In this document: one piece after another, positions 36,655 through 54,924 of the stretch
Layout of the letters: the number at the start of each line of letters is the position of its first letter
How positions within the stretch are numbered: the stretch's first letter is position 1
NCBI GenBank assembly: GCA_938002255.1
Contig: CALLAL010000003.1
Location: 65,639-129,638, forward strand
Reading direction: 5' to 3'
DNA from: an uncultured bacterium
GTDB lineage: Bacteria > Desulfobacterota > BSN033 > UBA1163
Length of the DNA: 64,000 nt
Program-made: the position numbers and the translations under genes
Notes under the pieces: generated by a model
Databases searched by the model: none
What the model saw: only the letters and a program-made list of their open reading frames with translations
Told to the model about the DNA's origin: nothing

Positions 36655-38247
36655 CTACGGTGGATTCTCTCCACATCGTGCCTGGAACCACTCTTCATGA
36701 AATCTTTTCAGGAGATGGTGCTGCTGGCGAAGGGAAAAATCAGTATATTCAGGATCCTTCTTACCGTAGGCCCTTTCAATAAAAGCCATCGATTCGTGCG
36801 TGATCCGAATCTCCCTTTTGATCTTCTCGCATCTGTTCGGGTCAAATCGAAAGGGAATCGTCTCCTTTTGAGGAGGAGCCCTTGATTCGACTTTCTTTAA
36901 AGGGGGAGGGGGCTCTCTGCATTCCGACTTTTTCCACTCTTCGTTCAATCTCGCCAGAAGGTGACGTTGCTGTTGAATCGAGAAATCAGCGTACTTCGGA
37001 TTTCTCTTCCGATAGGTCCTTTCAATAAAGGCGATAGACTGGTTGGCTGAACGAACCTTGTCGTGGATCATTTCACACTTTTTCAGCCCCCAGCGAGCCT
37101 CGATCGAATCCGATGGATGCGGAGAGAACCAGAGGTGGTTCTGGTAAACATCGTAAAGAGAGACCGCACGATTCTCAGAGATCGTCATCAAAATGGTCTC
37201 CATCCTCTTTTTGATATCTAGGGGGTCGAGGGGGTTCGATTCAACGATCTGATCAAGATGGTCGATTAAAGAGATGATCATTCCGTCACGTCCTGACGTA
37301 TGATACAGTTCCCATCCTTCAGTTCCTTTTGCACAAAGATCAGTCTGACATTGCTGGTAACCTTCTAAAACAAGAGGAACTCGTTCTTTCAAGTACCGTT
37401 TAAGAGTTTCCAACCCCTTAACGAACGTTTCCTCAGGAGTGTACGGATTTGGATCAATTCGTTTAGCGACAGCCTCCACAAAGTCCACTCCTCCTTTATA
37501 GAAAGCAGGAAGGTATTGCTCCTCTGAGTAGAAAGGGTGTTCTTTGACAGGAAGATATGTCCAAGCGCCGTTTTCAAAAACGGGCCAGCGAAATTTTACA
37601 AGACCTGAACCCGCTTTGGCGTCTGGTTTACCAGAGAAGAAATATTTTGGACTTAATTTCTGTATTTTCACTGGAAGAGCGGATTCCCAGGTTTGAAGGG
37701 GATGAGGATGGCTTCCGTCGACAAAAACACGACTGATCATGCCGGTATGGGATTCTGTCTCTAAAAAGAGGGTCCCAGGTCTAATCGAATCCGGTGTAAT
37801 CCGGACAGGGTAAGTATCAAGAGGTAGCGTTCCCGTCCATGTCCTTGGAAAGAGATAGAACAGGGCAGCACGGAAGCGTCTGTCTTGATGCCACTCGGAA
37901 TGGGTAGGGAGGTGTTTCCAGTTCGTTGACCAATGGCCGACCCACTCTCCATCTTTGGTGGTTGCCGCCGCAGGGAGACGAGCAATGCGGGCGTAAATCC
38001 ATCGGATTGCATAAACGGCATCTGCACAATCTGTGGGGATATGATACCGGATGAAAAAATCTTCCGTGATCGTCTCTTCTACCCATTTCTCAAACAGACG
38101 TTCCTCTTCGATCGTCCAACGGCGATCGCCAACCTCCCAGATCTGATCCGAAGATTCATTAAACGTTTGACTAAAAGAGATCGTAGGGATAAAAAAGATC
38201 AGGATTAAGATAAACAAAGGCATCATTCCCCTTGCAAGCCCCCCCAT
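36655..38247 (-). CDS. Secreted hypothetical protein with two tandem C-terminal ~60-aa Cys-bracketed repeats
   Basis: A signal peptide MGGLARGMMPLFILILIFFIPTISFSQ is present. The repeats are CEMIHDKVRSANQSIAFIERTYRKRNPKYADFSIQQQRHLLARLNEEWKKSEC and CEKIKREIRITHESMAFIERAYGKKDPEYTDFSLRQQHHLLKRFHEEWFQARC. Confidence 0.5.
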   Translation of the reverse strand: MGGLARGMMPLFILILIFFIPTISFSQTFNESSDQIWEVGDRRWTIEEERLFEKWVEETITEDFFIRYHIPTDCADAVYAIRWIYARIARLPAAATTKDGEWVGHWSTNWKHLPTHSEWHQDRRFRAALFYLFPRTWTGTLPLDTYPVRITPDSIRPGTLFLETESHTGMISRVFVDGSHPHPLQTWESALPVKIQKLSPKYFFSGKPDAKAGSGLVKFRWPVFENGAWTYLPVKEHPFYSEEQYLPAFYKGGVDFVEAVAKRIDPNPYTPEETFVKGLETLKRYLKERVPLVLEGYQQCQTDLCAKGTEGWELYHTSGRDGMIISLIDHLDQIVESNPLDPLDIKKRMETILMTISENRAVSLYDVYQNHLWFSPHPSDSIEARWGLKKCEMIHDKVRSANQSIAFIERTYRKRNPKYADFSIQQQRHLLARLNEEWKKSECREPPPPLKKVESRAPPQKETIPFRFDPNRCEKIKREIRITHESMAFIERAYGKKDPEYTDFSLRQQHHLLKRFHEEWFQARCGENPP

Positions 38248-38301: not shown

Positions 38302-38514
38302 TCAAGAAAACCCTCTGGACCCAGATGAGCCACAGGAGGAAGTGGATTCTGATCTTTTTGTTGTGGAGAACCCTGAGACAACTTTCTCTGGCTCCCATTC
38401 TCCACAATAGGGACATGAGATGGATTCGGGTCCCTCCTGGACCTTTTGAATCTTTTCAAAAAACTCTCCGCACTTTCGACATCGATACTCATAAATAGGC
38501 ATCGTTTCCTCCAT
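38302..38514 (-). CDS. FmdB family zinc-ribbon protein
   Basis: MPIYEYRCRKCGEFFE...CPYCG has the CxxC...CxxC FmdB signature. Confidence 0.6.
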   Translation of the reverse strand: MEETMPIYEYRCRKCGEFFEKIQKVQEGPESISCPYCGEWEPEKVVSGFSTTKRSESTSSCGSSGSRGFS

Positions 38515-38553
38515 CTAATTCACATCGCACACGGTGCTTAGCGTTGAGGGGTT

Positions 38554-39621
38554 CTATTGTTGAAGAGAATTCTCTGCGTTTTGCTCTTTGCCACTCTGTG
38601 AGATCACTTCATATCCTGCATCGGTGATCGCCTTGACAATCACCTCGTTGGCAACGCCCTTTATATTGTCATACCGAACCTCTCCTTTTTCAAGATCCAC
38701 CTGGACATTCTGGATCCCATCCAACTGATTCAAGGCTTTCGTGACGGCCATGACGCAGTGTTGACAGCTCATCCCCTTCACCGCTAATTTGTTCATTGAA
38801 TCTCCCTTTGATTCTTCTTGGGCCTTAGATCCTTTTTCTTGCCCGCCCTTCTCTTCCTCTGAGGAATCTTTTTCCTTTACCTCAACGACCTCTATCTTCT
38901 CTTTTTCCTGTACCCCCTCAACTGCTGCGTCAATACGAGTCTTTCTTAAGTGCTTCATTAACGCTTCATACCAGATCGGGTGACGTCGTTTAGCATATTC
39001 GACATCTACTTTTCCGGTAAAGATTGATTTTGTCAGTGGGCGATTCACTTTAAAGATTAAGGCGGATAGATGGGCAACCACACCCAGGAGAAAGAAGATG
39101 GTCGCAAAGGTGTGAAGGAGGGTTGCCGCAGTAATCAATGCCGGTGAAAGGAAGACGCCAGGGAGGTTTTTAATCACTTTGATCATTCCGGTAAGGACCA
39201 GAACCAATCCGACCCCGCCCAGATAGACATAAGCAAGACGCTGCTCAGGAAGGTATTTATCTGATTTCGGCTCTTCACCCAACCCAACCATACTGAGAAT
39301 GGTAAGGACCGACGCCTTGAAATCACCCCTTTTCGGCAGAAGTCCCCGATGTCCCAGCCATCCATGATAGAGACCATGAAAAACCATCACCGAAACAAAG
39401 GCCATTCCAGCCAGGTAATGGATCTTTAAGTTGATGAAGAAGTCTCCTGCCCATCCCAGGCCTGGAATCTGGGTCACCATAAATCTTTTATACATCGGGA
39501 GCTCTCCAAAACCCGAAAAGATGAGCACCAATCCAGAGATCGCGAGTACCCAATGCTCAACGAGCTCAATCGGGCTGTGTCGAAGGATCACATTTTCTCT
39601 CTCGATGATTCTCTCTTTCAT
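38554..39621 (-). CDS. Di-heme cytochrome b membrane subunit (FdnI/HyaC-like) fused to a C-terminal heavy-metal-associated (HMA, CopZ-like) domain
   Basis: Four or five TM helices carry conserved His (HWVLAISG, HYLAGMAF..FHGLYHG, HTFATIFF..HLSALIF). An acidic, Lys-rich linker follows. The C-terminus has MNKLAVKGMSCQHCVMAVTKAL, with the HMA metal-binding motif GMxCxxC. Confidence 0.7.
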   Translation of the reverse strand: MKERIIERENVILRHSPIELVEHWVLAISGLVLIFSGFGELPMYKRFMVTQIPGLGWAGDFFINLKIHYLAGMAFVSVMVFHGLYHGWLGHRGLLPKRGDFKASVLTILSMVGLGEEPKSDKYLPEQRLAYVYLGGVGLVLVLTGMIKVIKNLPGVFLSPALITAATLLHTFATIFFLLGVVAHLSALIFKVNRPLTKSIFTGKVDVEYAKRRHPIWYEALMKHLRKTRIDAAVEGVQEKEKIEVVEVKEKDSSEEEKGGQEKGSKAQEESKGDSMNKLAVKGMSCQHCVMAVTKALNQLDGIQNVQVDLEKGEVRYDNIKGVANEVIVKAITDAGYEVISQSGKEQNAENSLQQ

Positions 39622-40613
39622 TCCTTCTCCTCCTCCATCTTTTCTATTCTCCGGTGGTAAACTGCAAGTCCAACGGCCGCCAAGCCGCTGATAAGTGGGG
39701 CAATGAGAAAGCCTTTAGCCCAACTGTTGACGGCACGTAGCGGATTGAGCACTTTGCTCATTGGGAGGCTTGATTTCGCCTCTTTCAATTTAGAGTCGAT
39801 CCTCTCAAAAGGAACCTTACTCACATAGAAAGTGGCGGTCCCCCCGTTTTCGTTTTCTCCGTAAATGAATCCTTTGATCTCTTTTGCTCTTTCATGGGCG
39901 ATCTTGACAAGATCATCCCGTTTCCCGAAATGGAGAGGTTTTTTGTCTCCCAGCCTTTTATCACAAGCCTCTACGCAAGCCGGAATCATGCCATTCTTCA
40001 GGCGATCATGGCAGAGATCACATTTATACATCACTCCTCCCCCCGCTGGCATCGGTTGTAATTTGAGATAAAGCCCTACCCCGCTCTGTCTCTGAGGGAT
40101 ATGCCAGGGACACACAGCCTTGCACTTCGCCCCTCCCATACAGAGGTTATGATTGATCACGACAGAGCCGTCTGAGTACTTATTGAGAGCCCCAAAGGGA
40201 CAGAGATTGGCACAGGGGGGATTGTCACAGTGCATACAGCGACGGGGAATAAAGATCTCCTCTCCCTCTACCTCCACTTTCTGAACGGTGGTCCAGTTAT
40301 AAGGGGTAAGTTGATTGGTCACCTCTCGCTTCTTCGACCAGTCATCGAAGGTCTTTTGAGGCCAGAGATTTTTGATTGGCTCTCTGGGTTCTGGAAATTT
40401 CTTCACATTTTCTTTTCGGCAAGCCTCCACACATTTCGGGATGGGCTCGTTTTTACAGCCATCACATCTGGTCAGGTCAATCAGGGTAGCGTAGGTACCC
40501 GCTTTGGCAGAAGCCGTCCCTGTCACCCCTACAGTGCAGGCGGCACCCAAGGCCGTCACCATTGCCCCCTTCTTCAAAAAATTTCTTCGAGTCAGCCTGT
40601 GATCTTTCTCCAT
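39618..40613 (-). CDS. Tat-exported 4x[4Fe-4S] ferredoxin subunit (FdnH/HybA-like) with a C-terminal membrane anchor
   Basis: A twin-arginine signal (RLTRRNFLKKGAMVTALGAA) is present. There are four Cys clusters (CDGC..C..C, CMHCDNPPCANLCP, CMGGAKCKAVCP, CDLCHDR..CVEAC). The tail has one TM helix. Confidence 0.75.
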   Translation of the reverse strand: MEKDHRLTRRNFLKKGAMVTALGAACTVGVTGTASAKAGTYATLIDLTRCDGCKNEPIPKCVEACRKENVKKFPEPREPIKNLWPQKTFDDWSKKREVTNQLTPYNWTTVQKVEVEGEEIFIPRRCMHCDNPPCANLCPFGALNKYSDGSVVINHNLCMGGAKCKAVCPWHIPQRQSGVGLYLKLQPMPAGGGVMYKCDLCHDRLKNGMIPACVEACDKRLGDKKPLHFGKRDDLVKIAHERAKEIKGFIYGENENGGTATFYVSKVPFERIDSKLKEAKSSLPMSKVLNPLRAVNSWAKGFLIAPLISGLAAVGLAVYHRRIEKMEEEKE

Positions 40614-40673
40614 ACACCGTTCTCCTTTGGCCTACCCGATGCGCTATTTTCTCAGCGCTTTGGGTTAGGTTGC

Positions 40674-40955
40674 TTACGCCCAATCCATATACTTTGAAAT
40701 GACTTCTCTAAATTCCTGCAAGGATTCCTCTTGTTGCACTCCAGATGCTTCTTTGCTCCTCTTCAAACACTCCTCCAAATGAGTCTGAATAATAATCGTT
40801 CCCACCTTTTTGATGGCCGCTGTGGCTGCCGCATTTTGCATTAAAATGTCCTGACAGGCCGCCCCCTCTTCGACCATTCTCTGAAGCCCCCGTATCTGTC
40901 CCTCAATTCGTCTCAGCCTTGCCAGGATCTCTTTTTTCTGTCTTTCTTTGTTCAT
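40674..40955 (-). CDS. csoR: CsoR/RcnR family metal-sensing transcriptional repressor
   Basis: A 93-aa protein. ARLRRIEGQIRGLQRMVEEGAACQDIL...H...C matches the CsoR fold, including the Cys-His-Cys metal ligands. Confidence 0.7.
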   Translation of the reverse strand: MNKERQKKEILARLRRIEGQIRGLQRMVEEGAACQDILMQNAAATAAIKKVGTIIIQTHLEECLKRSKEASGVQQEESLQEFREVISKYMDWA

Positions 40956-40959
40956 ACAC

Positions 40960-40974
40960 TACCCCCCTATGGTA
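40960..40974. promoter_or_regulatory. Candidate CsoR operator: a G/C tract flanked by TACC/GGTA inverted ends, immediately upstream of the csoR start
   Basis: The plus strand reads TACCCCCCTATGGTA. This resembles B. subtilis CsoR operators (TACCCTACGGGGGTA type). Confidence 0.4.
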
Positions 40975-41142
40975 TAAACAAATTTTAACGATCCTTTTCC
41001 TCTTTGTCAAGGGATGGAAAGTGATGTGTCATTTAAGAATTCCTGATGACACAATTAGGTGCTGAGACCATAGATCCGAAATGCATTGAACCAGAAAGGA
41101 AACCTACGTTCTAAATCCCAGAGTCTCCGTGGGAGGGATCAG

Positions 41143-41808
41143 CTATTTTTTCCTCAAAACAGGTTCGGAGTAGTAAGCTGTGACCATCTCATTACTATCA
41201 TCGGTGTCGGTCTGGATACCAATGGCTAAGATAGGGAGAGGTTCTGTTTCAAAGGCTCTTTTAAAATCTTGATGGAGATTTCTCTCAAAATAGACCCATC
41301 GTCCAACCTTTACCTCCCCCGTTTCCACCACATAAATTTTGCAGTTTGCCTGTGCAGGATGGTCAAAGAGATGCCCCCTGGGAAGACGCGTGGCCCAGAT
41401 GTATTCAATCCTCAAGCCTGCAGGATCCATCATTCCAATTCTCTTGAGCGGTCCCCCTCGTCCAAAGATGACGATCACTCGGGCGGCTGCATCAAAACGA
41501 TCTTTTCTCGTCTCGATGGCAGAGCGAACCACATTCGATATCTTCCATCCCCACTTAAGAACAGCCAGATCTCTCTCCTTTTCTCCAATGACTTTAAAGA
41601 GGGAAGAACGACTTCCTGCACTTTCTGCTTTGATGATCCTGTTACCCGCCTTTGAGTAGAGGGTGGGAACTTTCTGAAAATATTTTACTTCCACCCAGCC
41701 TTTGATAGGAGATTCCGGCTCTTTCGGTTCTTCAGGAGGAGACCCGAAGAAAGGAATTTGAGCCAGGATCAAAAAGAGTCCTACGGGGATCCAGAGAAAT
41801 TTCATCAT
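41143..41808 (-). CDS. Secreted hypothetical protein (DUF3047-like)
   Basis: A signal peptide is present. Length is 221 aa. The family assignment is tentative and based on length and pattern. Confidence 0.4.
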   Translation of the reverse strand: MMKFLWIPVGLFLILAQIPFFGSPPEEPKEPESPIKGWVEVKYFQKVPTLYSKAGNRIIKAESAGSRSSLFKVIGEKERDLAVLKWGWKISNVVRSAIETRKDRFDAAARVIVIFGRGGPLKRIGMMDPAGLRIEYIWATRLPRGHLFDHPAQANCKIYVVETGEVKVGRWVYFERNLHQDFKRAFETEPLPILAIGIQTDTDDSNEMVTAYYSEPVLRKK

Positions 41809-45455: not shown

Positions 45456-46028
45456 ATGGGACTGAAAGGAAGTCAGACCGAAAAGAACCTGATGGCCGCC
45501 TTTGCCGGAGAGTCTCAAGCCAGAACTCGTTACACCTACTTTGCCAGTGCTGCCAAAAGAGAAGGATATGAACAGATTGCGGCCCTCTTTCTCGATACAG
45601 CGGAAAACGAAAAGGAACATGCCAAACTCTTTTTTAACCTGCTTCAAGGAGGCGAGGTGGAAATTACGGCGGCCTATCCTGCTGGACCTGTTGGAAACAC
45701 TGCCTCCAATTTAAAGGCAGCCGCGGATGGGGAAAAACTCGAGTGGACCACTCTTTATCACAACTTTGCTGAGATCGCAAAACAGGAAGGCTTTCTCGAA
45801 ATTTCCGAAACCTTTAACTGGGTTTCCAAGGTGGAGAAGGCTCATGAGGAAAGATATCGAAAACTACTCAAGGGAGTGACAGAGGGAAAGATTTTTAAGA
45901 AGGAGACCCCTGTCAAGTGGCATTGCCGTAATTGTGGTTATGTTTTCGAGGCCAACGAGGCTCCTGAAAAATGCCCGGTCTGTAAACATCCTCGTGCATT
46001 CTTTGAAGTTTACGCAGAAAATTATTAA
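45456..46028 (+). CDS. rbr: Rubrerythrin with C-terminal rubredoxin-like domain
   Basis: Di-iron ferritin-like motifs (E..E..H twice) are present. The C-terminus has CRNCGY...CPVCKH. Confidence 0.85.
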
Positions 46029-46051
46029 AGACTATTGTTGTGTATTTAAAT

Positions 46052-46088
46052 GAAAGCCCCGCTTATTTAGCGGGGCTTTCATGTTGTT
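46052..46088. terminator. Hairpin terminator after rbr (possibly bidirectional)
   Basis: The perfect 11-bp stem GAAAGCCCCGC...GCGGGGCTTTC has a 7-nt loop. The flanking T-richness is modest. Confidence 0.55.
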
Positions 46089-46234
46089 GAAAAACGATTG
46101 TTTTGCCTTTTTGCAATGACTTGGAACCTTCTGGTTCTTGTCCTGTAGGTCTTCTAACCTCTCTTTTCCGTTTCTTTATCACACAAGATTAAGGGGTCCC
46201 CTCCCCTCTTAAGAGAGAACCCAAAAAGACCTTA

Positions 46235-46297
46235 ACAGGACGCCTTGCATTTGCATGTGGTGGCAAACCTTTTTACAACCTTTTTAATCGTCATCAT
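46235..46297 (-). CDS. Unannotated 21-aa micro-ORF MMTIKKVVKRFATTCKCKASC, a candidate RiPP precursor peptide
   Basis: A strong AGGAGGTG SD lies 5 nt before ATGATG. The C-terminus is Cys-rich (CKCKASC). It sits co-directional, about 80 nt downstream of the ATP-grasp-like gene, in the rSAM/SPASM cluster. Confidence 0.3.
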
Positions 46298-46377
46298 CCT
46301 CACCTCCTTTCTAACAAAATCATATCATAAAAAACGACAAAGGCAAGCCTTTTTATTGGTCTGGAAATTCTGACCTT

Positions 46378-47448
46378 TCATGCTTCAAAACAGGCTTTAG
46401 GCAAGTGAGAAAGATCAATGGTTTCATACAGTCTTTCTATTTTGATGGAGAGGTCTTGAAGGAGGTGAAAGGTTGGCACAGGAATCTGGAGAGCCGTCCG
46501 TGCAACGACATCCTCATAAAGGTTGTGCCTTAAATAAGAAGGTTCGCTTCTCTCAAACCAGATTTTGGCTTCCCACGACCTTTGGTTAAAGGTCTCTGTC
46601 TTAAACACCTTTTCTTGAAGCCCATAACCTTCACCCGGGGTGACAAAGGCTAATATGCCGTGGTTCGATATGGACCGTGTCGAAAGGTTGGCATACATGC
46701 AAATAAAACGGCCACCGAAAGCAACCGACCGAATCGAAAAATGAAATCCATCCACGGAGCTTTCAATATATTCCTGTAGCAAATAACTCTGACGCTCTGA
46801 TTTCAGTCTGGAAAACTCTTCAGGATGGTAAATCTTGTGTAACCCCCTGCCTCCTCGTCCAACGCGCCGTTTCAATACAAGCACTGATTTCTTTTCTAAA
46901 AACCCCTCCGCCTCTGTGAGGTCGCTGAGATCGAGGCATCTGGTTTCAGGCACGGGAAAGATGGAATGGAGCAATTGATACTGAACCCATTTGTCTTCAA
47001 GTCTCAACCCAGGATGGAAGGTATTAGGGAAAGGCCCCATGCCATCCATCCATATTTTGAAGGGTTTCAGAGCCTCAATGAAAGGGAGCCCCTGAAGATA
47101 CTCTTGAAAAGACTTGCCATAGACTTCTTGAGAGGTGGTCTCAATGAATTTAAAAATGCCCGAAGGTCTTTTCAGGTAAACTTGGTGGGTCAGTTCATAC
47201 TCCTGGGCTCCTCCGGGCAAACCCACATTGACGTCAATGACGAAAGGAGTCACCCCTTGAGAAATCAGAAAATCGATTCCCAAATACATTGCTTTCCATC
47301 CTGAATAAAAATCCTTCCCCTCACAAGCCCGCGAGGGAGGTCTGCTCTGACATCGCCTGTAGAAGGTCGGGTCACTTTTTTGATTCTCCTTCTCCTGATT
47401 CTTCCCGAAAGACTCCCCTGGCACAACACTGGAAGAGATCCGGCGCAA
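46378..47448 (-). CDS. ATP-grasp-like protein with atypical motif order (candidate peptide ligase)
   Basis: The K-loop VLVLKRRVGRGGRGLHKI and the segments LLQEYIES and FHFSIRSVAFGGRFICMYAN are ATP-grasp-like. An E-x-N-x-x-PG-like segment GIDFLISQGVTPFVIDVNVGLPGG lies N-terminal of them. The start is either 47448 (77-nt overlap with the rSAM gene) or 47289. Confidence 0.5.
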   Translation of the reverse strand: MRRISSSVVPGESFGKNQEKENQKSDPTFYRRCQSRPPSRACEGKDFYSGWKAMYLGIDFLISQGVTPFVIDVNVGLPGGAQEYELTHQVYLKRPSGIFKFIETTSQEVYGKSFQEYLQGLPFIEALKPFKIWMDGMGPFPNTFHPGLRLEDKWVQYQLLHSIFPVPETRCLDLSDLTEAEGFLEKKSVLVLKRRVGRGGRGLHKIYHPEEFSRLKSERQSYLLQEYIESSVDGFHFSIRSVAFGGRFICMYANLSTRSISNHGILAFVTPGEGYGLQEKVFKTETFNQRSWEAKIWFERSEPSYLRHNLYEDVVARTALQIPVPTFHLLQDLSIKIERLYETIDLSHLPKACFEA

Positions 47449-48559
47449 AAGGATCCCCCTGAAGTTTGGCCCGATAACGGCATCCGCCCCTGCATTCCTC
47501 CATCACGGAGCAACTGCATCTCAATTGTTGCAACGGAATTCGCGGGACCCTTTCCCAGCAAGCCCGGAGTCCTTCGTCTATCGATCCCACAGGTTCTTCG
47601 CTGAAGAGACCGCACTTGGCGACCTTCCCATCAGGAAAGATGGCGCAGAGATGGGCGCCACAGGTCTGCTGATGCTCCGCGCTATGGAGTCCTCCACCAA
47701 AGGCATATCTTAAAAGAGGTCCTGCCTCCTTAGGTGAAACCCAGAGGTCTTGATGCTCCTCCAATCTTCCTGCAAGGCAGGGAACATCCACATTCCATTC
47801 TTCGATCTGCTTCGATTGGAGAAAGGAGGCTAGTTCATCAAACTCCGCTAAATTATCTCGATGAATCATCGTCGCGATCGAAACTTGAAGATGTGCCTCC
47901 TGGAGACGGTCAATGGCTCGAATGACTTTCTCAAACGTCCCCTCTCCTCGAAGGGATTCATGACCTTTTCTCATCCCATCGAGACTGAGTTGAACTTCAT
48001 GGACGCGAAGCTTTCGGGCATTGTCTTTGTTGATCAATGTACCGTTCGATAGCAAGACGGAACGAAATGGATAATCCCTCAAAACCTCATTGATCTCCCA
48101 GAAATGGGGATGGAGCAAGGGCTCTCCTCCCGAAAGCAGAAGCCTCAGCCCTTGAATTTCTTCAAATTCTTTTAATACCTTGCCTATCTTTTCAAAAGGC
48201 AAATCCTGACAGAGACCCTCTCCGAGATAGCAGTGGCGACAACAGAGGTTGCATCGGTCAGTAATCTGGAATTCCAGATACCGGAGAGAGGGAACCGGTG
48301 AGGGATGAACACAGATGTCTCTTCGGACTGGAGTGTCTGACATGAAAATGAGATTTTCGGAGAGACAGTATTGAATGAATGATTCGTCTTCTTCCTTTAC
48401 AGAAAGGAGTTCCCCTTGTGAACACTTCAGAAGAAATTGAAATGCCTCTTCCCCCAATTCGTAAAGATGGTCGTTTGCGATGTCATACAGATATGGTTCT
48501 TCAAGCCTCTTGAGCGCACAGTGGGGAGAAACCGAGAAGAACTTATTTGTGTAAGACAT
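47372..48559 (-). CDS. Radical SAM enzyme with C-terminal SPASM domain (peptide-modifying maturase)
   Basis: The CNLCCRHC radical SAM cluster motif is present. The C-terminal SPASM Cys set is CGAHLCAIFPDGKVAKCG...CSCSVMEECRGGC. Confidence 0.8.
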   Translation of the reverse strand: MSYTNKFFSVSPHCALKRLEEPYLYDIANDHLYELGEEAFQFLLKCSQGELLSVKEEDESFIQYCLSENLIFMSDTPVRRDICVHPSPVPSLRYLEFQITDRCNLCCRHCYLGEGLCQDLPFEKIGKVLKEFEEIQGLRLLLSGGEPLLHPHFWEINEVLRDYPFRSVLLSNGTLINKDNARKLRVHEVQLSLDGMRKGHESLRGEGTFEKVIRAIDRLQEAHLQVSIATMIHRDNLAEFDELASFLQSKQIEEWNVDVPCLAGRLEEHQDLWVSPKEAGPLLRYAFGGGLHSAEHQQTCGAHLCAIFPDGKVAKCGLFSEEPVGSIDEGLRACWERVPRIPLQQLRCSCSVMEECRGGCRYRAKLQGDPFAPDLFQCCARGVFREESGEGESKK

Positions 48560-48707
48560 GTTCGATCTCTTCTGGAGTCAGGGTCCCATTTTCGAGCAGG
48601 CTTTTCAAGATCTTGAAAGCACCGCATTCCAGATCTTTCTCAGACTCCTTGTAAAAATCGCAGTGGGAGCAAATCAGATGGATAAGAGATTCTTTGTCCA
48701 GGCTCAT
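48543..48707 (-). CDS. Small PqqD-like protein (candidate RiPP recognition element)
   Basis: ECGAFKILKSLLENGTLTPEEIEHVL resembles the PqqD motif (LNETG..IW.LLDG..T..EI). It is 55-70 aa long and overlaps the rSAM start by 17 nt. Confidence 0.45.
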   Translation of the reverse strand: MSLDKESLIHLICSHCDFYKESEKDLECGAFKILKSLLENGTLTPEEIEHVLHK

Positions 48708-48871
48708 CAACAAACCTCTAAACCTATTTATAATCTTAAAAATCCATTCAATCAAGATGAGCCATTCAACATTCCTTTTGGGTTGAGAGGATGAACTCGT
48801 CTGACTTGTACAGACTATTTACCATCTAAATGAAATTGAATGATTCACCCTATTTCACCTACGACTTGACA

Positions 48872-48890
48872 AATGCAACATTGTTGCATT
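48872..48890. promoter_or_regulatory. Perfect 19-bp palindrome AATGCAACATTGTTGCATT, a candidate Fur-family (Zur) box, abutting a TTGACA -35
   Basis: It is a 9-1-9 palindrome. It sits immediately after TTGACA (48866-48871) and 24 nt upstream of the regulator ATG at 48914. It lies in the divergent region shared with the rSAM cluster. Confidence 0.5.
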
Positions 48891-48913
48891 ATCCTGATTT
48901 TAGGATTGGTCAC

Positions 48914-49339
48914 ATGAGAAATGGCCCGAGTAAGATTTTTCTTAGACTTCAAAAGCAGGGGGTTCGGCTTACCCGGGCTCGGGGGGCTATTATTGATCTT
49001 CTGATCAAGAAGCAAACTTTCCTTTCCTTAGCAGACCTTAAGAAGGGCTTGGAAAGAAAGAAGGTTAGGGCTGACCGGACGACCCTTTACAGGGAAATCC
49101 TCTTTTTAAAACAACAGGGTATGATCTGTGAAATACCGATGGGCGGAGGAAAAAAAGGATACAAGATCTGCGAGGATGGCCATCATCACCATCTCATCTG
49201 CATCCGATGTAATAAGGTTGAAGAGATTGCGTTGAAGAACACCCTGGCCCCTCAGGAGAAAGAAATCGCTCGACTAAGGGGTTTCATGGTTTTGGAACAT
49301 CTGCTCGAATTTTACGGGTTTTGTGAGGATTGCCAATAA
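48914..49339 (+). CDS. Fur family transcriptional regulator (Zur-like by genomic context)
   Basis: It has a winged-helix N-terminus. HHHLICIRCNKVEE and C..C at the C-terminus are Fur-family metal sites. It heads an operon with znuACB. Confidence 0.75.
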   Translation: MRNGPSKIFLRLQKQGVRLTRARGAIIDLLIKKQTFLSLADLKKGLERKKVRADRTTLYREILFLKQQGMICEIPMGGGKKGYKICEDGHHHHLICIRCNKVEEIALKNTLAPQEKEIARLRGFMVLEHLLEFYGFCEDCQ

Positions 49340-49617
49340 TGCGCTGGTCTGAATCTGTTTTCATCAAGTGTGCTTTCATTTTGTTGGGGTTATTTAGCCT
49401 TGGCCTCCTTGTCTCCGTTTTTCATCATCATGAGGATGGATTGTCTCATGAGACCTGCCTCCTCTGTGTTCTGATAGCCCATCAAACGGATATGGCGATT
49501 CAGCATGAAGATCCCGCGTTCCTGCCTAATGCCCATCTTCTTTTTTCATCGAACATAGACCCCACCTTTCTTTCAACTTCCCATCAAACATTCCTGATCC
49601 GAGCTCCTCCTGCATAA
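49339..49617 (+). CDS. Small membrane protein with an HHH/Cys motif, translationally coupled to the Fur-family gene (TAATG overlap)
   Basis: One TM helix is followed by VFHHHEDGLSHETCLLCVLIAHQ. Confidence 0.4.
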   Translation: MRWSESVFIKCAFILLGLFSLGLLVSVFHHHEDGLSHETCLLCVLIAHQTDMAIQHEDPAFLPNAHLLFSSNIDPTFLSTSHQTFLIRAPPA

Positions 49618-49666
49618 TCTTGTTCCTCTCGTAAGCCATACTTTTTCGGATAAGGAGGTGTTTGTT

Positions 49667-50680
49667 ATGCCTACCCGTCAGCTGAACTGGGTTGTTGTAG
49701 TCGTCTCTATTTTGATTGTCATTTTTACATCTGTCTCTTGCCAGAAGAAAGAACAAGAGGCAGTAAAAGGTAAGAAGATCAAAGTCATCACCACCCTCTT
49801 TCCTCTTTACGATTTTGCTAAAAACATAGGTCAGGATAAGGCCGAGGTTGTTCTTTTGTTACCCCCTGGTGTTGAACCCCACAGTTTTGAACCTAAACCC
49901 GAGGATATCGTTCGAATTAACAAAGCTGATCTCTTTGTCTTTACGGGCAAATATATGGAGCCCTGGGCAGAGGATGTTCTGAAAGGATTGGATCACAAGA
50001 ATCTGATCGTGGTCGATTCCTCTCATGGGATCTCCTTGATGGAGGAAAAGGGGAAACATGAACACCCACATGGCCACCAGCACGAACATAAAGAAGTCCA
50101 TGGTCACAAAGAGGACCACACACATCAGCATAAGGAAGGACACCATCATCAGATGGATCCTCATTTCTGGCTCGATTTTGGTCATGCCCAAAAGATGATA
50201 GATCATATCCTTGAGGGTTTCGTTCAAAAAGATCCTTCCCATAAGGAGTTCTATCTCCAAAATGCCGAACGATACAAGTCGAGGTTGAACGAACTTGACC
50301 TAAAATTCAAAGAGGTCCTCTCTCGTTGCAAGAAAAAGGTGTTTGTCCACGCCGGGCACTTCGCCTTCGGGTACCTGGCAAAAAGATACGGCCTGGAATA
50401 TGTTTCTGCCTATGGTTTTTCTCCCGATGCGGAACCCTCTCCACAAAAAATGGTTGAGCTGACAAAGACCCTGAAAAAGCATGGCCTTCAGCATATTTAT
50501 CATGAGGAGTTGATCACCCCAAGGGTAGCAGAAACCCTCGCCAAAGAGACCAAAGCTTCTCTATTGAAGCTTCATGGAGCACATAATCTGACCAAAGACG
50601 AATTGGATAAGGGAATTACTTTTATTTCCCTGATGGAGGAAAACCTCAAGAGCCTGGAGGTTGGGCTCCAATGTCAGTAA
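49667..50680 (+). CDS. znuA: Zinc ABC transporter substrate-binding lipoprotein with His-rich loop
   Basis: A lipobox is present. The His-rich loop reads HEHPHGHQHEHKEVHGHKEDHTHQHKEGHHHQ. The fold is TroA/ZnuA-like. An AAGGAGG SD precedes it. Confidence 0.85.
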   Translation: MPTRQLNWVVVVVSILIVIFTSVSCQKKEQEAVKGKKIKVITTLFPLYDFAKNIGQDKAEVVLLLPPGVEPHSFEPKPEDIVRINKADLFVFTGKYMEPWAEDVLKGLDHKNLIVVDSSHGISLMEEKGKHEHPHGHQHEHKEVHGHKEDHTHQHKEGHHHQMDPHFWLDFGHAQKMIDHILEGFVQKDPSHKEFYLQNAERYKSRLNELDLKFKEVLSRCKKKVFVHAGHFAFGYLAKRYGLEYVSAYGFSPDAEPSPQKMVELTKTLKKHGLQHIYHEELITPRVAETLAKETKASLLKLHGAHNLTKDELDKGITFISLMEENLKSLEVGLQCQ

Positions 50681-51426
50681 GTGTGGTATCCGTCAGAAAT
50701 CTCTCGTTCCGCTATAATTCTGAAGAAGTATTGGCTAACATATCCTTCGAAGTTGGCCAGGGGGATTATGTCGGCCTTGTGGGACCAAATGGTTCCGGCA
50801 AAACGACGCTAATCCGTAACCTGCTCGGACTCCTCAAGCCGTCCGCAGGAGCCGTGTCTCTATTTGGGAAGAGCCTTTTGGATTTCCACGAATGGCATAA
50901 GGTCGGTTATCTTTCCCAGAAATTCATAACTTCCTATCACCACTTTCCGGCAACGGTGAGAGAAGTTGTTTCTATGGGGCTCCTCTCCACCAAGAGATTT
51001 CCAAAGCGGATGGGACCTCCTGATGACAGAGCGGTAGAGAAAGCTCTGGCATGTATGGGAATCCTCGACCTGAAAAACAGACTGATTCATGAGCTCTCCG
51101 GAGGACAGCAGCAGAGGGTTTTCATCGCACGAACCATAGTAAACGAACCCGAGCTTCTGATCCTTGACGAACCGACGGCGGCAGTCGACCCGGAGACAAG
51201 AGAACGATTTTTTAGCCTCCTGAGAGACCTTCATCATCAGAAGCAAACTACCATTATCCTGGTGACCCACGATATCGGAAGTATTGGGAAATACGCTTCC
51301 AAGATGATGTTCCTGGATAAGAGGGCCATCTTTTACGGGTCGTTTGAAGCCTTCTGTCAGTCTGTGGAAATGACGAATCTTTTTGGAAGTCTCTCTCAAC
51401 ATCTCATTTGTCACAGGCACGGGTAA
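50671..51426 (+). CDS. znuC: Zinc ABC transporter ATP-binding protein
   Basis: Walker A GPNGSGKTT, signature LSGGQQQRV and Walker B LILDEP are present. Confidence 0.85.
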   Translation: MSVSVVSVRNLSFRYNSEEVLANISFEVGQGDYVGLVGPNGSGKTTLIRNLLGLLKPSAGAVSLFGKSLLDFHEWHKVGYLSQKFITSYHHFPATVREVVSMGLLSTKRFPKRMGPPDDRAVEKALACMGILDLKNRLIHELSGGQQQRVFIARTIVNEPELLILDEPTAAVDPETRERFFSLLRDLHHQKQTTIILVTHDIGSIGKYASKMMFLDKRAIFYGSFEAFCQSVEMTNLFGSLSQHLICHRHG

Positions 51427-51429
51427 CGT

Positions 51430-52260
51430 ATGGAGATGATCGATTTCTTGGGGTATGGGTTTATCCAAAGGGCATTGATTACCGGTTTTTTTATCGCCCT
51501 CCTCTGTTCTTGTCTCGGATTCTTTCTGGTTCTGAGGCGTCTCTCTCTGATTGGCGATGGTTTGGCCCATGTCACCTTTGGAAGTGTAGCCGTGGCGCTG
51601 TTTTTAAAAACCTTTGCTCTCTATGTATCCATTCCACTGGTTATGATCAGCGCCCTGGGGATCTTAAGGTTGATTGAAAGGGCAAAATTACACGGTGATG
51701 CCGCTATCGGAATCGTCTCGTCGCTTGGGATTGCCATGGGAATCCTCCTAGCGAGCCTGGCCGGAGGATTTAACGTCGATCTCTTCAGTTATCTCTTCGG
51801 AAACATCTTGGCGATTAGCCAGGAGGAGATGGTCTCCTCGATCCTTCTCTCCGGGGTTGCTCTATTACTTGTTGTTTTTTTCTATCATGACCTTTTGTCC
51901 ACCACGTTTGATGAAGAATCGGCAAAGACCGGAGGAATTAAAACCAGGAGAATCAATACGATTCTCTTTCTTTTGACCGCTGTGACTGTGGTCTTAACCA
52001 TGAAAGCTGTAGGCATTTTATTGACCTCTGCACTTCTGATTCTACCGGCAGTCACCTCGTTACAGATTTTAAAAGGTTTCAAAGCATCCCTTCTGATCTC
52101 GTCGCTGATTGGTGTTCTGTCGGTCGTTGGGGGAATCTTTATCTCTTTTGGGTTGAATCTACCAACAGGTGCAACCATCGTTTTGTTTAACTTTTGTATC
52201 TTTGTGGGCATGTTTGTCTATGGGAAGCAAAAAGCAGAAAAAAAGGAGGAGCGACCATGA
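51430..52260 (+). CDS. znuB: Zinc ABC transporter permease
   Basis: A 276-aa polytopic membrane protein of the ZnuB/TroCD family. Confidence 0.85.
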   Translation: MEMIDFLGYGFIQRALITGFFIALLCSCLGFFLVLRRLSLIGDGLAHVTFGSVAVALFLKTFALYVSIPLVMISALGILRLIERAKLHGDAAIGIVSSLGIAMGILLASLAGGFNVDLFSYLFGNILAISQEEMVSSILLSGVALLLVVFFYHDLLSTTFDEESAKTGGIKTRRINTILFLLTAVTVVLTMKAVGILLTSALLILPAVTSLQILKGFKASLLISSLIGVLSVVGGIFISFGLNLPTGATIVLFNFCIFVGMFVYGKQKAEKKEERP

Positions 52261-53810: not shown

Positions 53811-53828
53811 AAAGAAAGGAGTCATCTT

Positions 53829-54881
53829 ATGCGAAATACATTAACGGGGATTTCCTTGGGTTTTGTCCTTCCATTTCTTCTTTTTTTATTGATGGTTATC
53901 CCTTCCATTGTTCATGCACAGGGGGACCTCAGACCTCTTCGGGTCTGCGCTACGGTTCCTGATCTCGGCGATCTTGTCCGGGAAATCGGAGGTGATCAGG
54001 TTTCGATTACAGTGTTCGCCAAGGGGAGAGAAGATCCGCATTTCATTGAGGCAAAACCCAGCTTCATAAAAGCTCTGAGTCAGGCCGATCTTTTTTTACA
54101 GATTGGGATGGAGCTGGAGATGGGATGGGTTCCGGTCTTACTGCAGAATGCCCGCAATGGACGCGTCCTCCCCGGAGCGACGGGACATCTGGATGCATCC
54201 AGGGTAATTCAACCAATGGAGGTTCCAACGGGAATCGTGGATCGTTCCTTGGGTGATGTACATCCGACAGGGAATCCCCATTATCTTCTGGACCCGCTGA
54301 ACGGACTTCAGGTGGCACGAATGATCACCGACAAGCTAATTGAAATCCGGCCCGAAAAAAAATCTTTCTTCGAAGAAAGGTATCGGGTATTATATAGGAA
54401 GATGGGAAATGCCATGGCAGGGGAGCGACTGGCAGGAAAGTATGAATTTGAGAAACTCGCCCTATTATTTTCTGAAAATCACCTATCAGAATTTCTAAAG
54501 GAACGAAGAGAAGAAAATGTTCTGGGAGGCTGGTTGGGAAGAATGCTTCCTCTGATTGGAATGAAAGCGGTGGCTGACCATAACTTGTGGCCCTATTTTG
54601 CCCGACGATTTGGAATATCAGTTGTAGGTTTTTTGGAACCCAAGCCCGGGATTCCTCCCACTACCAGACATCTTCAGACGATTGTAGAAAAAATGAAGTC
54701 AGAGGGAATCAAATTGATATTAGCTTCACCCTATTTCGATATACGTCATGCCCAATTTGTTTCAAAAAACGCAGGGGCTAAGGTCGTTCCGATGGCCCAT
54801 CAGGTTGATTCCCGGCCAAGCACGAAGAACTACTTGAGTATGATCGACTACAATGTCCGGCAGGTTTCTGAAGCATTTTAG
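53829..54881 (+). CDS. Second metal ABC transporter substrate-binding protein (TroA/ZnuA-like, no His-rich loop)
   Basis: A signal peptide precedes a cluster-9 substrate-binding fold with metal-binding His and Asp positions. Confidence 0.75.
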   Translation: MRNTLTGISLGFVLPFLLFLLMVIPSIVHAQGDLRPLRVCATVPDLGDLVREIGGDQVSITVFAKGREDPHFIEAKPSFIKALSQADLFLQIGMELEMGWVPVLLQNARNGRVLPGATGHLDASRVIQPMEVPTGIVDRSLGDVHPTGNPHYLLDPLNGLQVARMITDKLIEIRPEKKSFFEERYRVLYRKMGNAMAGERLAGKYEFEKLALLFSENHLSEFLKERREENVLGGWLGRMLPLIGMKAVADHNLWPYFARRFGISVVGFLEPKPGIPPTTRHLQTIVEKMKSEGIKLILASPYFDIRHAQFVSKNAGAKVVPMAHQVDSRPSTKNYLSMIDYNVRQVSEAF

Positions 54882-54924
54882 CAAGACAGAGGCCAACGAG
54901 GACGGACACGGATGGGTTAACAGG

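What the first reader, a model, noticed from the sequence alone, without database searches (positions are those of the whole stretch)
38302..40974. CsoR-controlled electron-transfer module without a catalytic subunit: Tat FdnH-like 4x[4Fe-4S] protein, cytochrome b fused to an HMA domain, and an FmdB zinc ribbon
The beta and gamma subunits of a formate-dehydrogenase-N or hydrogenase-type membrane complex are present. No molybdopterin or NiFe catalytic partner lies nearby. They sit directly behind a CsoR-family copper-sensor gene with an operator-like TACCCCCCTATGGTA at its start. The cytochrome b carries a C-terminal CopZ-like GMSCQHC domain. Together this points to a copper-responsive quinone-linked redox system, for example periplasmic copper redox handling or delivery to the downstream secreted repeat protein. 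I do not recognise it as a described system.
Basis: partly seen in the sequence, partly recalled or inferred. Interest (0 to 1): 0.75.

Follow-up and report, generated by a model that had tools for sequence, protein, structure and literature searches.

The report
Orphan iron-sulfur/cytochrome b copper-sensor operon
A conserved operon in anaerobic Syntrophales-type bacteria puts a two-protein membrane electron wire, whose cytochrome carries a copper-chaperone-like tail, under a copper-sensor-type repressor with no enzyme subunit attached; I found no description of it and its job is unknown.

Summary
On the minus strand lie a CsoR-family repressor, a Tat-exported HybA/FdnH-like Fe-S protein, an FdnI-type dihaem cytochrome b fused to a CopZ-like HMA domain, and an FmdB zinc ribbon. 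A sigma-70 promoter and an ATACC-N7-GGTAT operator precede them.

- The Fe-S gene sits directly upstream of the cytochrome b gene in all 81 distinct related loci.
- No Mo or NiFe catalytic subunit recurs nearby.
- csoR precedes the pair in 12 of 12 HMA-fusion loci and in 15 of 66 non-fused relatives. The operator is conserved.
- The zinc ribbon follows in 10 of 11 HMA-clade loci.

- The Fe-S protein has 15, not 16, invariant cysteines. A NarH-like motif suggests 3x[4Fe-4S] plus one [3Fe-4S].
- The HMA domain is cytoplasmic.
- The downstream secreted protein is not conserved.
- The Cu(I)-ligand histidine of the repressor is Tyr in 8 of 12 HMA-clade orthologues and Asn (as in CstR) in four non-fused relatives. 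Copper specificity is plausible for this window but unproven.

Best reading: a stress-derepressed module linking the menaquinone pool to the periplasm. It is an undescribed variant of known parts, and its substrate is unknown.

The parts
40982..41010 (-). Sigma-70-type promoter, TTGACA-17 nt-TAAAAT
   Evidence: 11 of 12 matches. A TTGACA -35 box is conserved upstream of csoR in the related loci.
40960..40974 (.). CsoR-family operator, ATACC-ATAGGGG-GGTAg pseudo-palindrome between the -10 box and the csoR start codon
   Evidence: the only TACC-N7-GGTA in the window (0.14 expected); the same motif at the same position in 27 csoR-linked loci; the L038 copy is a degenerate variant.
40674..40955 (-). 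CsoR-family (DUF156) repressor, 93 aa, W-X-Y-Z fingerprint x-C34-H59-C63
   Evidence: PF02583, 91 bits; best solved relatives are the Cu(I)-CsoRs 4m1p and 4adz. Cys34 and Cys63 conserved, position 59 variable (H/Y/N) among orthologues.
39618..40613 (-). Tat-exported, C-terminally anchored HybA/FdnH-like Fe-S protein, 331 aa, 15 invariant Cys
   Evidence: C-x-G-G-A-K-C motif in 77 of 77 relatives; twin-arginine motif in 77 of 77, C-terminal anchor in 76 of 77. The stop overlaps the cytochrome b start by 4 nt.
38932..39621 (-). FdnI-type dihaem cytochrome b domain (residues 1-230), four TM helices, N and C termini in the cytoplasm
   Evidence: PF01292, 66.5 bits. H23/H68/H170/H184 align with the four invariant His of E. 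coli FdnI; topology and fold match to 1kqf_C.
38794..38931 (-). Variable, E/K-rich disordered linker (about residues 231-276)
   Evidence: length- and sequence-variable; pLDDT below 50.
38602..38793 (-). CopZ-like HMA domain (residues 277-340) with invariant GMSCQHCV
   Evidence: TM-score 0.92 (normalised to the target) to CopZ 6ff2_A.
38302..38514 (-). FmdB-family zinc ribbon (CxxC...CxxC) with a Ser-rich tail containing a conserved Cys; likely start at 38502
   Evidence: TIGR02605, 62.8 bits; conserved directly downstream in 10 of 11 HMA-clade loci.

Best explanation
The locus is an autoregulated csoR-family operon: csoR, a hybA-like Fe-S gene, an fdnI-like cytochrome b fused to copZ, and fmdB. 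It encodes a self-contained two-subunit membrane redox module.

Shown:
- A repressor gene with a conserved operator over its own promoter.
- A Tat-exported, membrane-anchored Fe-S protein on the outer face.
- A four-helix cytochrome b with the four FdnI haem-ligand histidines and part of the FdnI quinone-site loop.
- A CopZ-type Cu(I)-binding domain tethered by a flexible linker on the cytoplasmic face.
- No catalytic subunit in cis in any relative.

Inferred:
- When the dithiol sensor is inactivated, the operon is derepressed. In this window's x-C-H-C protein the trigger is most likely Cu(I). In relatives it may be other thiol-reactive species.
- The complex then connects the menaquinone pool to the periplasm. 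The proposed path is menaquinol oxidised near the cytoplasmic haem, then electrons pass to the outer haem, a NarH-like [3Fe-4S] cluster, three [4Fe-4S] clusters, and finally a periplasmic acceptor. That acceptor could be copper ions, or periplasmic redox proteins or thiols damaged by copper.
- The HMA domain binds cytoplasmic Cu(I) at the membrane as a local buffer or switch.
- The direction of electron flow and the periplasmic partner are guesses.
For: - Domain calls (3, 4).
- Promoter and operator.
- The operator is conserved in 27 csoR-linked loci.
- csoR is present in 12 of 12 HMA-clade loci, in otherwise different flanks.
- The Fe-S gene is immediately upstream of cytochrome b in all 81 distinct loci.
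- Twin-arginine motif in 77 of 77 and C-terminal anchor in 76 of 77.
- FdnI haem ligands and the KYxxxQ loop are conserved.
- N-in/C-in topology and a CopZ fold.
- Group III motif C-x-G-G-A-K-C, compared with NarH CRGWRMC and with HybA, FdnH and DmsB, which carry a Cys there.
- No recurrent Mo or NiFe subunit among 129 large neighbours, and none found by jackhmmer except one cytoplasmic Mo enzyme.
- The window repressor is x-C-H-C and scores best against Cu(I)-CsoR structures.
- x-C-H-C marks Cu sensors according to PMC8643695.
Against: - Eight of 12 HMA-clade repressors have Tyr, and four non-fused relatives have Asn, at the His position. PMC8643695 states that this His is required for Cu(I)-driven derepression.
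- The second-shell Tyr that precedes the first Cys in the two solved Cu(I)-CsoRs aligned here (4m1p, 4adz) is absent.
- The operator shape equals that of a streptococcal CstR operator.
- No CopA, CopZ or Cus genes lie within 10 kb in five HMA-clade neighbourhoods with Pfam-annotated genes.
- The same module occurs under Crp/Fnr or TetR control, or next to SufCB.
- No periplasmic substrate site can be pointed to.
- From general redox chemistry, Cu(I) oxidation by menaquinone is uphill, and Cu(II) reduction has no obvious benefit in a sulfidic anaerobe.
Confidence: 0.45

Rival explanations
1. Spare membrane anchor. The pair is a quinone-coupling module for a soluble periplasmic hydrogenase, formate dehydrogenase or other reductase encoded elsewhere in the genome. 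This would be a HybA- or PhsBC-like role, for example pmf-driven reverse electron transfer in syntrophs. The csoR-linked, HMA-tagged version would then be a stress-inducible isoform.
For: - 33% identity to E. coli HybA, and best NCBIfam matches to HmcB, HybA and DsrO. All of these serve periplasmic partners.
- The distribution is enriched in syntrophs: Syntrophomonas, Smithella, Syntrophus, Syntrophorhabdus.
- FdnI-type topology with a cytoplasmic-side quinone loop suits pmf-assisted outward electron flow (plus general knowledge of PhsABC and FdnGHI).
Against: - In all 81 loci the partner would have to be encoded elsewhere, which is unusual for dedicated anchors.
- The tight two- or three-gene operon with its own stress-type repressor argues for a self-sufficient function.
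- The module is also present in facultative Bacillaceae.
Confidence: 0.2
2. Reactive-sulfur response. The repressors are CstR-like dithiol persulfide sensors. The module reduces periplasmic polysulfide, sulfane sulfur or aberrant persulfides and disulfides, using menaquinol and the membrane potential.
For: - Both Cys are invariant while the His position varies between H, Y and N. Asn is the CstR state.
- x-C-x-C marks persulfide sensors.
- The operator has the same shape as the S. mitis cst operator.
- A secreted rhodanese follows the pair in L059, whose repressor is of the Asn type, and lies nearby in L051.
- The window itself carries a YeeE/YedE plus MBL-rhodanese sulfur cluster about 19 kb away.
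Against: - The window's repressor has the His and scores higher against Cu(I)-CsoRs (61 and 59 bits) than against CstR (44 bits).
- The fused domain is a canonical CopZ-type GMSCQHC copper site.
- The usual cst genes (sqr, persulfide dioxygenase, TauE) are not in the operon.
- No known sulfur-reducing site is recognisable in the Fe-S protein.
Confidence: 0.2
3. Anaerobic cuprous oxidase. The periplasmic Fe-S protein oxidises Cu(I) to Cu(II) and passes the electrons to the quinone pool, replacing O2-dependent CueO or MmcO.
For: - A CsoR-family regulator (RicR) controls a multicopper oxidase in mycobacteria (general knowledge).
- The carriers detected are mostly MAGs from anaerobic lineages.
Against: - Thermodynamics, from general knowledge: Cu2+/Cu+ is about +0.15 V or higher when Cu(I) is ligated, against menaquinone at about -0.07 V.
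- Inward electron transfer also works against the membrane potential.
- No copper-binding Met/His/Cys motif is conserved in the periplasmic subunit.
Confidence: 0.05
4. Decayed remnant. The locus is a degenerate leftover of a formate dehydrogenase or hydrogenase operon that lost its catalytic gene.
For: Only the absence of an alpha subunit.
Against: - More than 120 full-length fusion proteins at 65-100% identity, with invariant haem, Cys and CxxC residues.
- The pair is conserved in 81 distinct loci across phyla.
- Family-specific invariant motifs.
- Translational coupling.
Confidence: 0.02

Closest known systems
E. coli hydrogenase-2 Fe-S protein HybA (with membrane subunit HybB)
   Same: Tat signal, four Cys groups, C-terminal TM anchor, periplasmic electron wire to the quinone pool. 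33% identity; second-best NCBIfam match.
   Different: HybA has 16 Cys (CTGCRYC in group III). It lacks the 5-residue insert in group I and the IPQRQxGVGLY...GGG insert. It pairs with the haem-less NrfD-type HybB and sits in an operon with the NiFe subunits.
E. coli formate dehydrogenase-N FdnH/FdnI (1KQF)
   Same: Best solved relatives of both subunits. The four haem-ligand His, the 14-residue spacing on helix 4, the KYxxxQ loop and the C-terminal HPxW helix align.
   Different: No FdnG. Only 25% identity for the cytochrome b. Below the NCBIfam formate dehydrogenase beta and gamma cut-offs. Extra cytoplasmic HMA domain. 15-Cys Fe-S protein.
NarH of nitrate reductase A (the [3Fe-4S] FS4 cluster)
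   Same: The second Cys of group III is replaced: NarH has CRGWRMC, this family has C-x-G-G-A-K-C. This points to a 3-Cys cluster at the haem-proximal position. The structural assignment rests on general knowledge of NarGHI and of DmsB-C102 mutants.
   Different: Gly instead of Trp. The protein is periplasmic and Tat-exported on its own, with no Mo subunit and far lower overall similarity.
B. subtilis-type csoR / copZ-copA copper efflux operon
   Same: A CsoR-family repressor with an ATACC...GGTAT operator over the promoter, and a CopZ-type GMSCQHC domain in the regulated operon.
   Different: No P-type ATPase. The CopZ module is fused to a respiratory-type cytochrome b. The His ligand is not conserved among orthologous repressors.
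CstR persulfide sensors and cst operons (S. aureus, Streptococcus, Enterococcus)
   Same: Dithiol x-C-x-C logic fits the variable His position. Four relatives carry the CstR Asn. The operator has the same shape.
   Different: The window protein has His. The regulated genes are not sulfurtransferases, persulfide dioxygenase or SQR.
Geobacter CbcBA/CbcL-type quinol oxidoreductases (from memory, not tested here)
   Same: An FdnI-like dihaem cytochrome b coupled to a periplasmic multi-centre electron wire, with no catalytic subunit, exchanging electrons between menaquinol and periplasmic carriers.
   Different: Their periplasmic wire is multihaem cytochrome c, not an Fe-S protein. There is no CsoR control and no HMA domain.

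Membership tests
Cu(I)-sensing CsoR | PF02583 (DUF156) four-helix-bundle repressor | tested here: met
   91.4 bits against a cut-off of 22.8; the best PDB hits are CsoRs.
Cu(I)-sensing CsoR | x-C-H-C W-X-Y-Z fingerprint (PMC8643695) | tested here: met
   The window protein has C34, H59 and C63. However, 8 of 12 HMA-clade orthologues have Tyr at the H position, and four non-fused relatives have Asn.
Cu(I)-sensing CsoR | Second-shell Tyr immediately before the first Cys (YC motif) | tested here: not met
   The window has AAC; 4m1p and 4adz have YC. A Glu/Asp at the second-shell Glu position is present.
Cu(I)-sensing CsoR | Neighbouring copA/copZ genes | tested here: inconclusive
   No CopA motif and no second HMA motif anywhere in the window, and none within 10 kb in relatives. 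The only CopZ-like module is the one fused to the cytochrome b.
Cu(I)-sensing CsoR | Cu(I)-dependent release from the operator | not testable with these tools
   Needs EMSA or anisotropy measurements, or qRT-PCR.
CstR persulfide sensor | x-C-x-C with a non-His (Asn wedge) at the Y position | tested here: not met
   The window has His59. The CstR structure 7mq1 aligns an Asn there. The feature is met in relatives L048, L050, L059 and L078.
FdnH/HybA-type four-cluster ferredoxin | Twin-arginine signal and C-terminal membrane anchor | tested here: met
FdnH/HybA-type four-cluster ferredoxin | Sixteen Cys in four C-x2-C-x2-C-x3-C-type groups, giving four [4Fe-4S] clusters | tested here: not met
   Fifteen invariant Cys. 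Group III is C-x-G-G-A-K-C-x3-C-P in 77 of 77 relatives. Group I is C-x2-C-x7-C-x3-C.
FdnH/HybA-type four-cluster ferredoxin | Curated equivalog score (HmcB, HybA, FDH-beta) | tested here: not met
   148.7 against 420, 115.4 against 263, and 72.1 against 334.7.
FdnH/HybA-type four-cluster ferredoxin | Encoded next to its catalytic subunit | tested here: not met
   Absent in the window and in all 81 distinct related loci. The single Mo enzyme nearby (L051) has no Tat signal.
FdnI/HyaC-type dihaem cytochrome b (PF01292) | Pfam gathering score | tested here: met
   66.5 against 30.1.
FdnI/HyaC-type dihaem cytochrome b (PF01292) | Four TM helices, and four His ligands, two of them 14 residues apart on helix 4 | tested here: met
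   H23, H68, H170 and H184 are invariant in 78 relatives and align with four invariant His of E. coli FdnI. Four long helices in the model.
FdnI/HyaC-type dihaem cytochrome b (PF01292) | Formate dehydrogenase gamma equivalog score | tested here: not met
   TIGR01583: 58.4 against 115.85.
CopZ/HMA copper chaperone | Beta-alpha-beta-beta-alpha-beta fold with a GMxCxxC loop | tested here: met
   TM-score 0.92 (normalised to the target) to 6ff2_A.
CopZ/HMA copper chaperone | Free-standing soluble protein reaching the CopZ equivalog score | tested here: not met
   Here it is a C-terminal domain of a membrane protein. CopZ_Bs scores 66.7 against 91.
FmdB zinc ribbon (TIGR02605) | CxxC...CxxC ribbon with a Ser-rich tail, above the cut-off | tested here: met
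   62.8 against 31.3. The tail S-S-C-G-S-S-G is conserved.

The most novel reading that the evidence does not exclude
The operon is a previously unrecognised, O2-independent copper-resistance determinant of strict anaerobes. In the classic csoR-copZ-copA layout, the efflux ATPase is replaced by a quinol-driven, pmf-assisted transmembrane electron wire. Under copper stress the wire delivers electrons to the periplasm. There it either reduces copper to an insoluble, harmless form (Cu(0) or Cu2S) or re-reduces copper-damaged periplasmic thiols and redox proteins. The tethered CopZ domain couples the complex's activity to cytoplasmic Cu(I).
Probability: 0.2. Interest if true: 0.8.

Novelty: new variant of a known kind. 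Interest (0 to 1): 0.6.

Why it matters
Copper toxicity is most severe without oxygen, yet the best-known periplasmic defence, the multicopper oxidases, needs O2. A conserved operon that places a respiratory-type electron-transfer module, tagged with a CopZ domain, under a CsoR-family repressor is a concrete candidate for an anaerobic redox route of metal or thiol-stress defence.

It also defines a wider family. These are 15-Cys HybA-like proteins paired with FdnI-like cytochromes b that work without a catalytic subunit. They occur in syntrophs, Firmicutes and Epsilonproteobacteria, and they are relevant to how these organisms move electrons between the quinone pool and the periplasm.

Finally, the natural H/Y/N variation at the sensor position of repressors that guard the same operon is a ready-made test set for what decides Cu(I) versus persulfide specificity in the CsoR family.

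Tried and rejected
- Catalytic partner in the window. The 720-aa Mo-bisPGD enzyme at 16114-18276 lacks a Tat signal and has its own 173-aa Fe-S subunit. Rejected as a partner.
- Catalytic partner in relatives. I used BLAST clustering of neighbours, a Pfam census of 129 large neighbours, and jackhmmer with the window Mo enzyme, HybC, HybO, HybB and fragments of NarG and DmsA. The only hits were one cytoplasmic Mo enzyme in L051 and a partial ORF at the end of L070, about 5 kb downstream.
- Desulfovibrio 'PhsAB' lead, recalled from memory as an HcpR-regulated Fe-S plus cytochrome b pair. The papers I could read treat PhsA as a molybdoenzyme, and I could not fetch the sequences. Dropped.
- Downstream genes as operon members in non-fused csoR loci. 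The apparent 826-aa ORF in L050 is an antisense artefact, and the real genes are on the other strand.
- Terminator between the zinc ribbon and the 530-aa protein. None is convincing (z = 0.61), so co-transcription in this organism cannot be excluded.
- Structure of the cytochrome b. Only moderate confidence (pLDDT 63). I used it only for helix count and the HMA fold.
- Literature. Eight searches gave no paper on this gene combination. Operator strings gave no hits.
- Rfam. No RNA family anywhere in the window.
- Extra conserved cytoplasmic His residues (H82, H86, H91) as a metal site. H82 and H86 are lost in Syntrophomonadaceae-type members, and H91 is specific to the HMA clade. Left as an unproven idea.


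Full report
**What is there**

The minus strand between 41010 and 38302 carries a compact transcription unit.
- A near-consensus sigma-70 promoter, TTGACA-17-TAAAAT.
- A 15-bp pseudo-palindrome, TACCATAGGGGGGTA, ending 5 nt before the ATG of a 93-aa CsoR-family gene. A TACC-N7-GGTA pattern occurs once in the 64-kb window, against 0.14 expected.
- A 331-aa Fe-S protein, starting 60 nt after the csoR stop and preceded by a GGAG ribosome-binding site.
- A 355-aa cytochrome b whose ATG overlaps the Fe-S stop (ATGA).
- A 70-aa zinc ribbon, 39 nt further on.

**The Fe-S protein**

Its best curated matches are HmcB, HybA and DsrO, ahead of the formate dehydrogenase beta subunit, and all fall below their cut-offs. 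It is 33% identical to E. coli HybA. FdnH is the best solved relative.

In 77 relatives exactly 15 cysteines are invariant. The third group always reads C-[FML]-G-G-A-K-C-x3-C-P.
- At the Gly position, HybA, FdnH and DmsB have the second Cys (CTGCRYC, CIGCGYC, CIGCRYC).
- NarH has Trp there (CRGWRMC).

From established work on NarGHI and on DmsB-C102 variants (my knowledge, not tested here), this is the signature of a [3Fe-4S] cluster at the position next to the membrane haem. The likely cofactor set is therefore three [4Fe-4S] clusters plus one [3Fe-4S], not four [4Fe-4S].

Group I carries a five-residue insert (C-x2-C-x7-C-x3-C). A family-specific IPQRQxGVGLY...GGG insert precedes group IV. 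All 77 have a twin-arginine motif, and 76 have a C-terminal hydrophobic anchor.

**The cytochrome b**

Hydropathy with the positive-inside rule and the AlphaFold model (moderate confidence) agree on the layout:
- four long helices, with both termini in the cytoplasm;
- a disordered E/K-rich linker at residues 231-274;
- a confident beta-alpha-beta-beta-alpha-beta domain at residues 277-340.

Foldseek matches the membrane part to FdnI (1kqf_C). It matches the tail to CopZ (6ff2_A, TM-score 0.92 normalised to the target).

Aligned with E. coli FdnI, H23, H68, H170 and H184 coincide with FdnI's four invariant histidines. Two of them lie 14 residues apart on helix 4. The KYxxxQ loop before helix 3 and the HPxW helix after helix 4 also align. 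By my recollection these are FdnI's haem ligands H18, H57, H155 and H169 and its cytoplasmic-side quinone loop. All of these residues are invariant across 78 relatives. The HMA domain is therefore cytoplasmic, tethered near the inner haem and the quinone site.

**Conservation of the fusion**

A search of 5.8 billion proteins gave 677 relatives. The best 120 all carry the PF01292 plus HMA architecture at 65-100% identity. They come mostly from Syntrophaceae or Deltaproteobacteria MAGs, and the sources name them only 'copper ion binding protein' or 'formate dehydrogenase gamma subunit'. GMSCQHCV is invariant in a 20-sequence sample. At 50% clustering the cytochrome b family is small: 32 representatives below 1e-30.

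**Neighbourhoods**

A scan of one genome per species returned 80 loci, and look-ups of individual proteins added nine more. Five of these are duplicates of others (L002, L003, L005, L013), leaving 81 distinct loci in the first analysis plus four analysed later (L087-L090).

The Fe-S gene lies immediately upstream of the cytochrome b gene in every one of the 81 distinct loci. The carriers include:
- Syntrophales and relatives: Smithella, Syntrophorhabdus;
- Bacillota: Syntrophomonas, Thermincola, Desulfitobacterium sp. THU1, Mesobacillus persicus;
- Geobacter, Campylobacter and Helicobacter.

The flanks are otherwise unrelated.

No large family recurs among 129 neighbours of 400 aa or more within six genes. 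The commonest Pfam families reach only 4-5 members and are housekeeping.

An iterative search used the window's Mo-bisPGD enzyme, HybC, HybO and HybB. It found one complete hit: a 751-aa Mo enzyme in L051 that has no Tat signal and sits between a MarR gene and a thioredoxin gene. A second, partial hit lies at the very end of L070, about 5 kb downstream.

The window's own Mo-bisPGD enzyme (16114-18276) is cytoplasmic and has its own beta subunit.

**The regulator link**

- All 12 distinct HMA-clade loci have csoR directly upstream on the same strand.
- Among non-fused relatives with enough upstream sequence, 15 of 66 also do: 13 on the same strand and 2 divergent.
- In all 27 csoR-linked loci an ATACC-N7-GGTAT element with a G/C tract sits between a conserved TTGACA/-10 pair and the csoR start. 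One copy, in L038, is degenerate.
- In the non-fused csoR loci the operon is usually just csoR, Fe-S and cytochrome b.
- The zinc ribbon, with its conserved S-S-C-G-S-S-G tail, follows in 10 of 11 HMA-clade loci. It is found nowhere else.
- The 530-aa secreted repeat protein downstream in the window is found in no other locus. It is not part of the system, although no clear terminator separates it here.
- Other relatives have a divergent Crp/Fnr gene (six loci, including both Campylobacter MAGs), a TetR gene, DUF134 genes, or overlapping sufC-sufB/D genes.

**Is the signal copper?**

Points in favour for this window:
- The repressor is x-C34-H59-C63, the fingerprint that PMC8643695 assigns to Cu(I) sensors.
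- Its best solved relatives are the Cu(I)-CsoRs 4m1p and 4adz (61 and 59 bits). CstR scores 44 bits.
- The operon contains a canonical CopZ-type site.

Points against:
- Among the 12 HMA-clade orthologues the His position is His in 4 and Tyr in 8.
- Among non-fused csoR-linked relatives it is His, Tyr or Asn. Asn is what the CstR structure has at that position.
- The same paper states that CstR binds Cu(I) but is not released from DNA, because it lacks this histidine. It also shows a streptococcal cst operator, ATATACCCTTATGGGGTATAT, with the same shape as the element here.
- The Tyr that precedes the first Cys in the two solved Cu(I)-CsoRs aligned here is absent.
- No copA, cus or separate copZ lies in the window or within 10 kb in five annotated HMA-clade neighbourhoods.

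I therefore rate Cu(I) responsiveness of this particular operon at a little over one half. A thiol-reactive or persulfide signal is the main alternative, and it is probably the real signal in the Asn-type relatives. One of those, L059, has a secreted rhodanese just downstream.

**Mechanism**

The architecture is shown:
- an outward-facing Fe-S wire anchored beside a dihaem cytochrome b;
- a cytoplasmic-side quinone loop;
- a cytoplasmic Cu(I)-type domain;
- a dithiol repressor guarding the promoter.

What it does is inferred. By analogy with FdnGHI, PhsABC and HybA-containing complexes, it should exchange electrons between menaquinone and something in the periplasm.

Simple redox chemistry (my knowledge) makes Cu(I) oxidation by menaquinone unfavourable. 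Quinol-driven reduction of a periplasmic acceptor is feasible, and outward electron flow would be assisted by the membrane potential. I therefore favour an outward, reductive direction. The acceptor is unknown. It could be copper itself, copper- or polysulfide-damaged periplasmic thiols and redox proteins, or a soluble redox enzyme encoded elsewhere.

Occasional alternative C-terminal fusions on the same cytochrome suggest a loose link to soft-metal and metalloid or Fe-S stress. These are MoaE in L025 and TehB/UbiE-like methyltransferases in L029 and L066. Some neighbours point the same way: a transporter I judged TehA-like from its sequence alone, a peroxiredoxin-like protein, and SufCB. They are single cases.

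**Verdict**

- the copper signal is plausible but not secure;
- the HMA domain faces the cytoplasm;
- the secreted neighbour is unrelated;
- the core pair is a widespread general module.

It is built from known parts in a new arrangement, so I class it as a new variant of a known kind. It is of moderate to high interest.

Noticed in passing
window 15600-18276 (-); L051 2051-4306: A 720-aa Mo-bisPGD oxidoreductase without a Tat signal, plus a 173-aa four-cluster-type Fe-S subunit, so a cytoplasmic enzyme. A close homologue (699 bits) sits two genes upstream of the Fe-S/cytochrome b pair in L051, in the order MarR, Mo enzyme, thioredoxin, Fe-S, cytochrome b.
   Followed up: partly
window 57938-63956 (-): A sulfur-handling cluster: a SulP/STAS permease, a split YeeE/YedE-type Sulf_transp pair, a metallo-beta-lactamase plus rhodanese fusion (shaped like a persulfide dioxygenase or CstB), and a Tll0287-like protein. 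It bears on the reactive-sulfur rival but starts about 17 kb from the operon.
   Followed up: partly
window 36655-38247 (-): A 530-aa signal-peptide protein with no Pfam or NCBIfam match. It has two C-terminal repeats of about 58 aa, each bounded by Cys residues. It is absent from all related loci, and no clear terminator separates it from the zinc-ribbon gene.
   Followed up: partly
window 45456-56579: A metal-homeostasis neighbourhood: rubrerythrin, a Fur-family regulator (48830-49339) and two ZnuA-type ABC uptake systems.
   Followed up: no
window 41143-41808 (-): A secreted DUF3047 protein upstream of csoR. It recurs at the same place in L008, L018 and L089, together with LysE, HAD and SLT_2 genes in L089. 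This looks like shared synteny rather than part of the operon.
   Followed up: partly
L025 5944-7080; L029 5962-7386; L066 1194-2513: In non-HMA relatives the same cytochrome b carries other cytoplasmic C-terminal domains: MoaE in L025, and class I SAM methyltransferases (TehB/UbiE-like) in L029 and L066. Most others have an acidic, Pro-rich disordered tail of about 60 aa.
   Followed up: partly
L020 107-3906: The Fe-S and cytochrome b genes are followed, with overlapping stops and starts, by an ABC-ATPase gene (inferred to be SufC from its position) and a SufB/D-family Fe-S assembly gene, in a Pseudomonadota MAG.
   Followed up: no
L031 3779-4960; L040 3758-4960: A 393-400-aa secreted protein with no Pfam match overlaps the start of the Fe-S gene in a Syntrophaceae/Deltaproteobacteria subgroup (a fragment is also seen in L054). 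FecCD/ABC, TonB-receptor and BioY genes follow the pair. It is a possible lineage-specific periplasmic partner.
   Followed up: no
window 39349-39378 (residues 82-91 of the cytochrome b): The cytoplasmic loop reads H82-x3-H86-x4-H91. H91 is His only in the HMA clade and Glu/Asp elsewhere. H82 and H86 are lost in Syntrophomonadaceae-type members. It is a possible extra metal site next to the inner haem in the copper-linked clade.
   Followed up: partly
window 1-64000: No Rfam family reaches its gathering score anywhere in the 64-kb window.
   Followed up: yes
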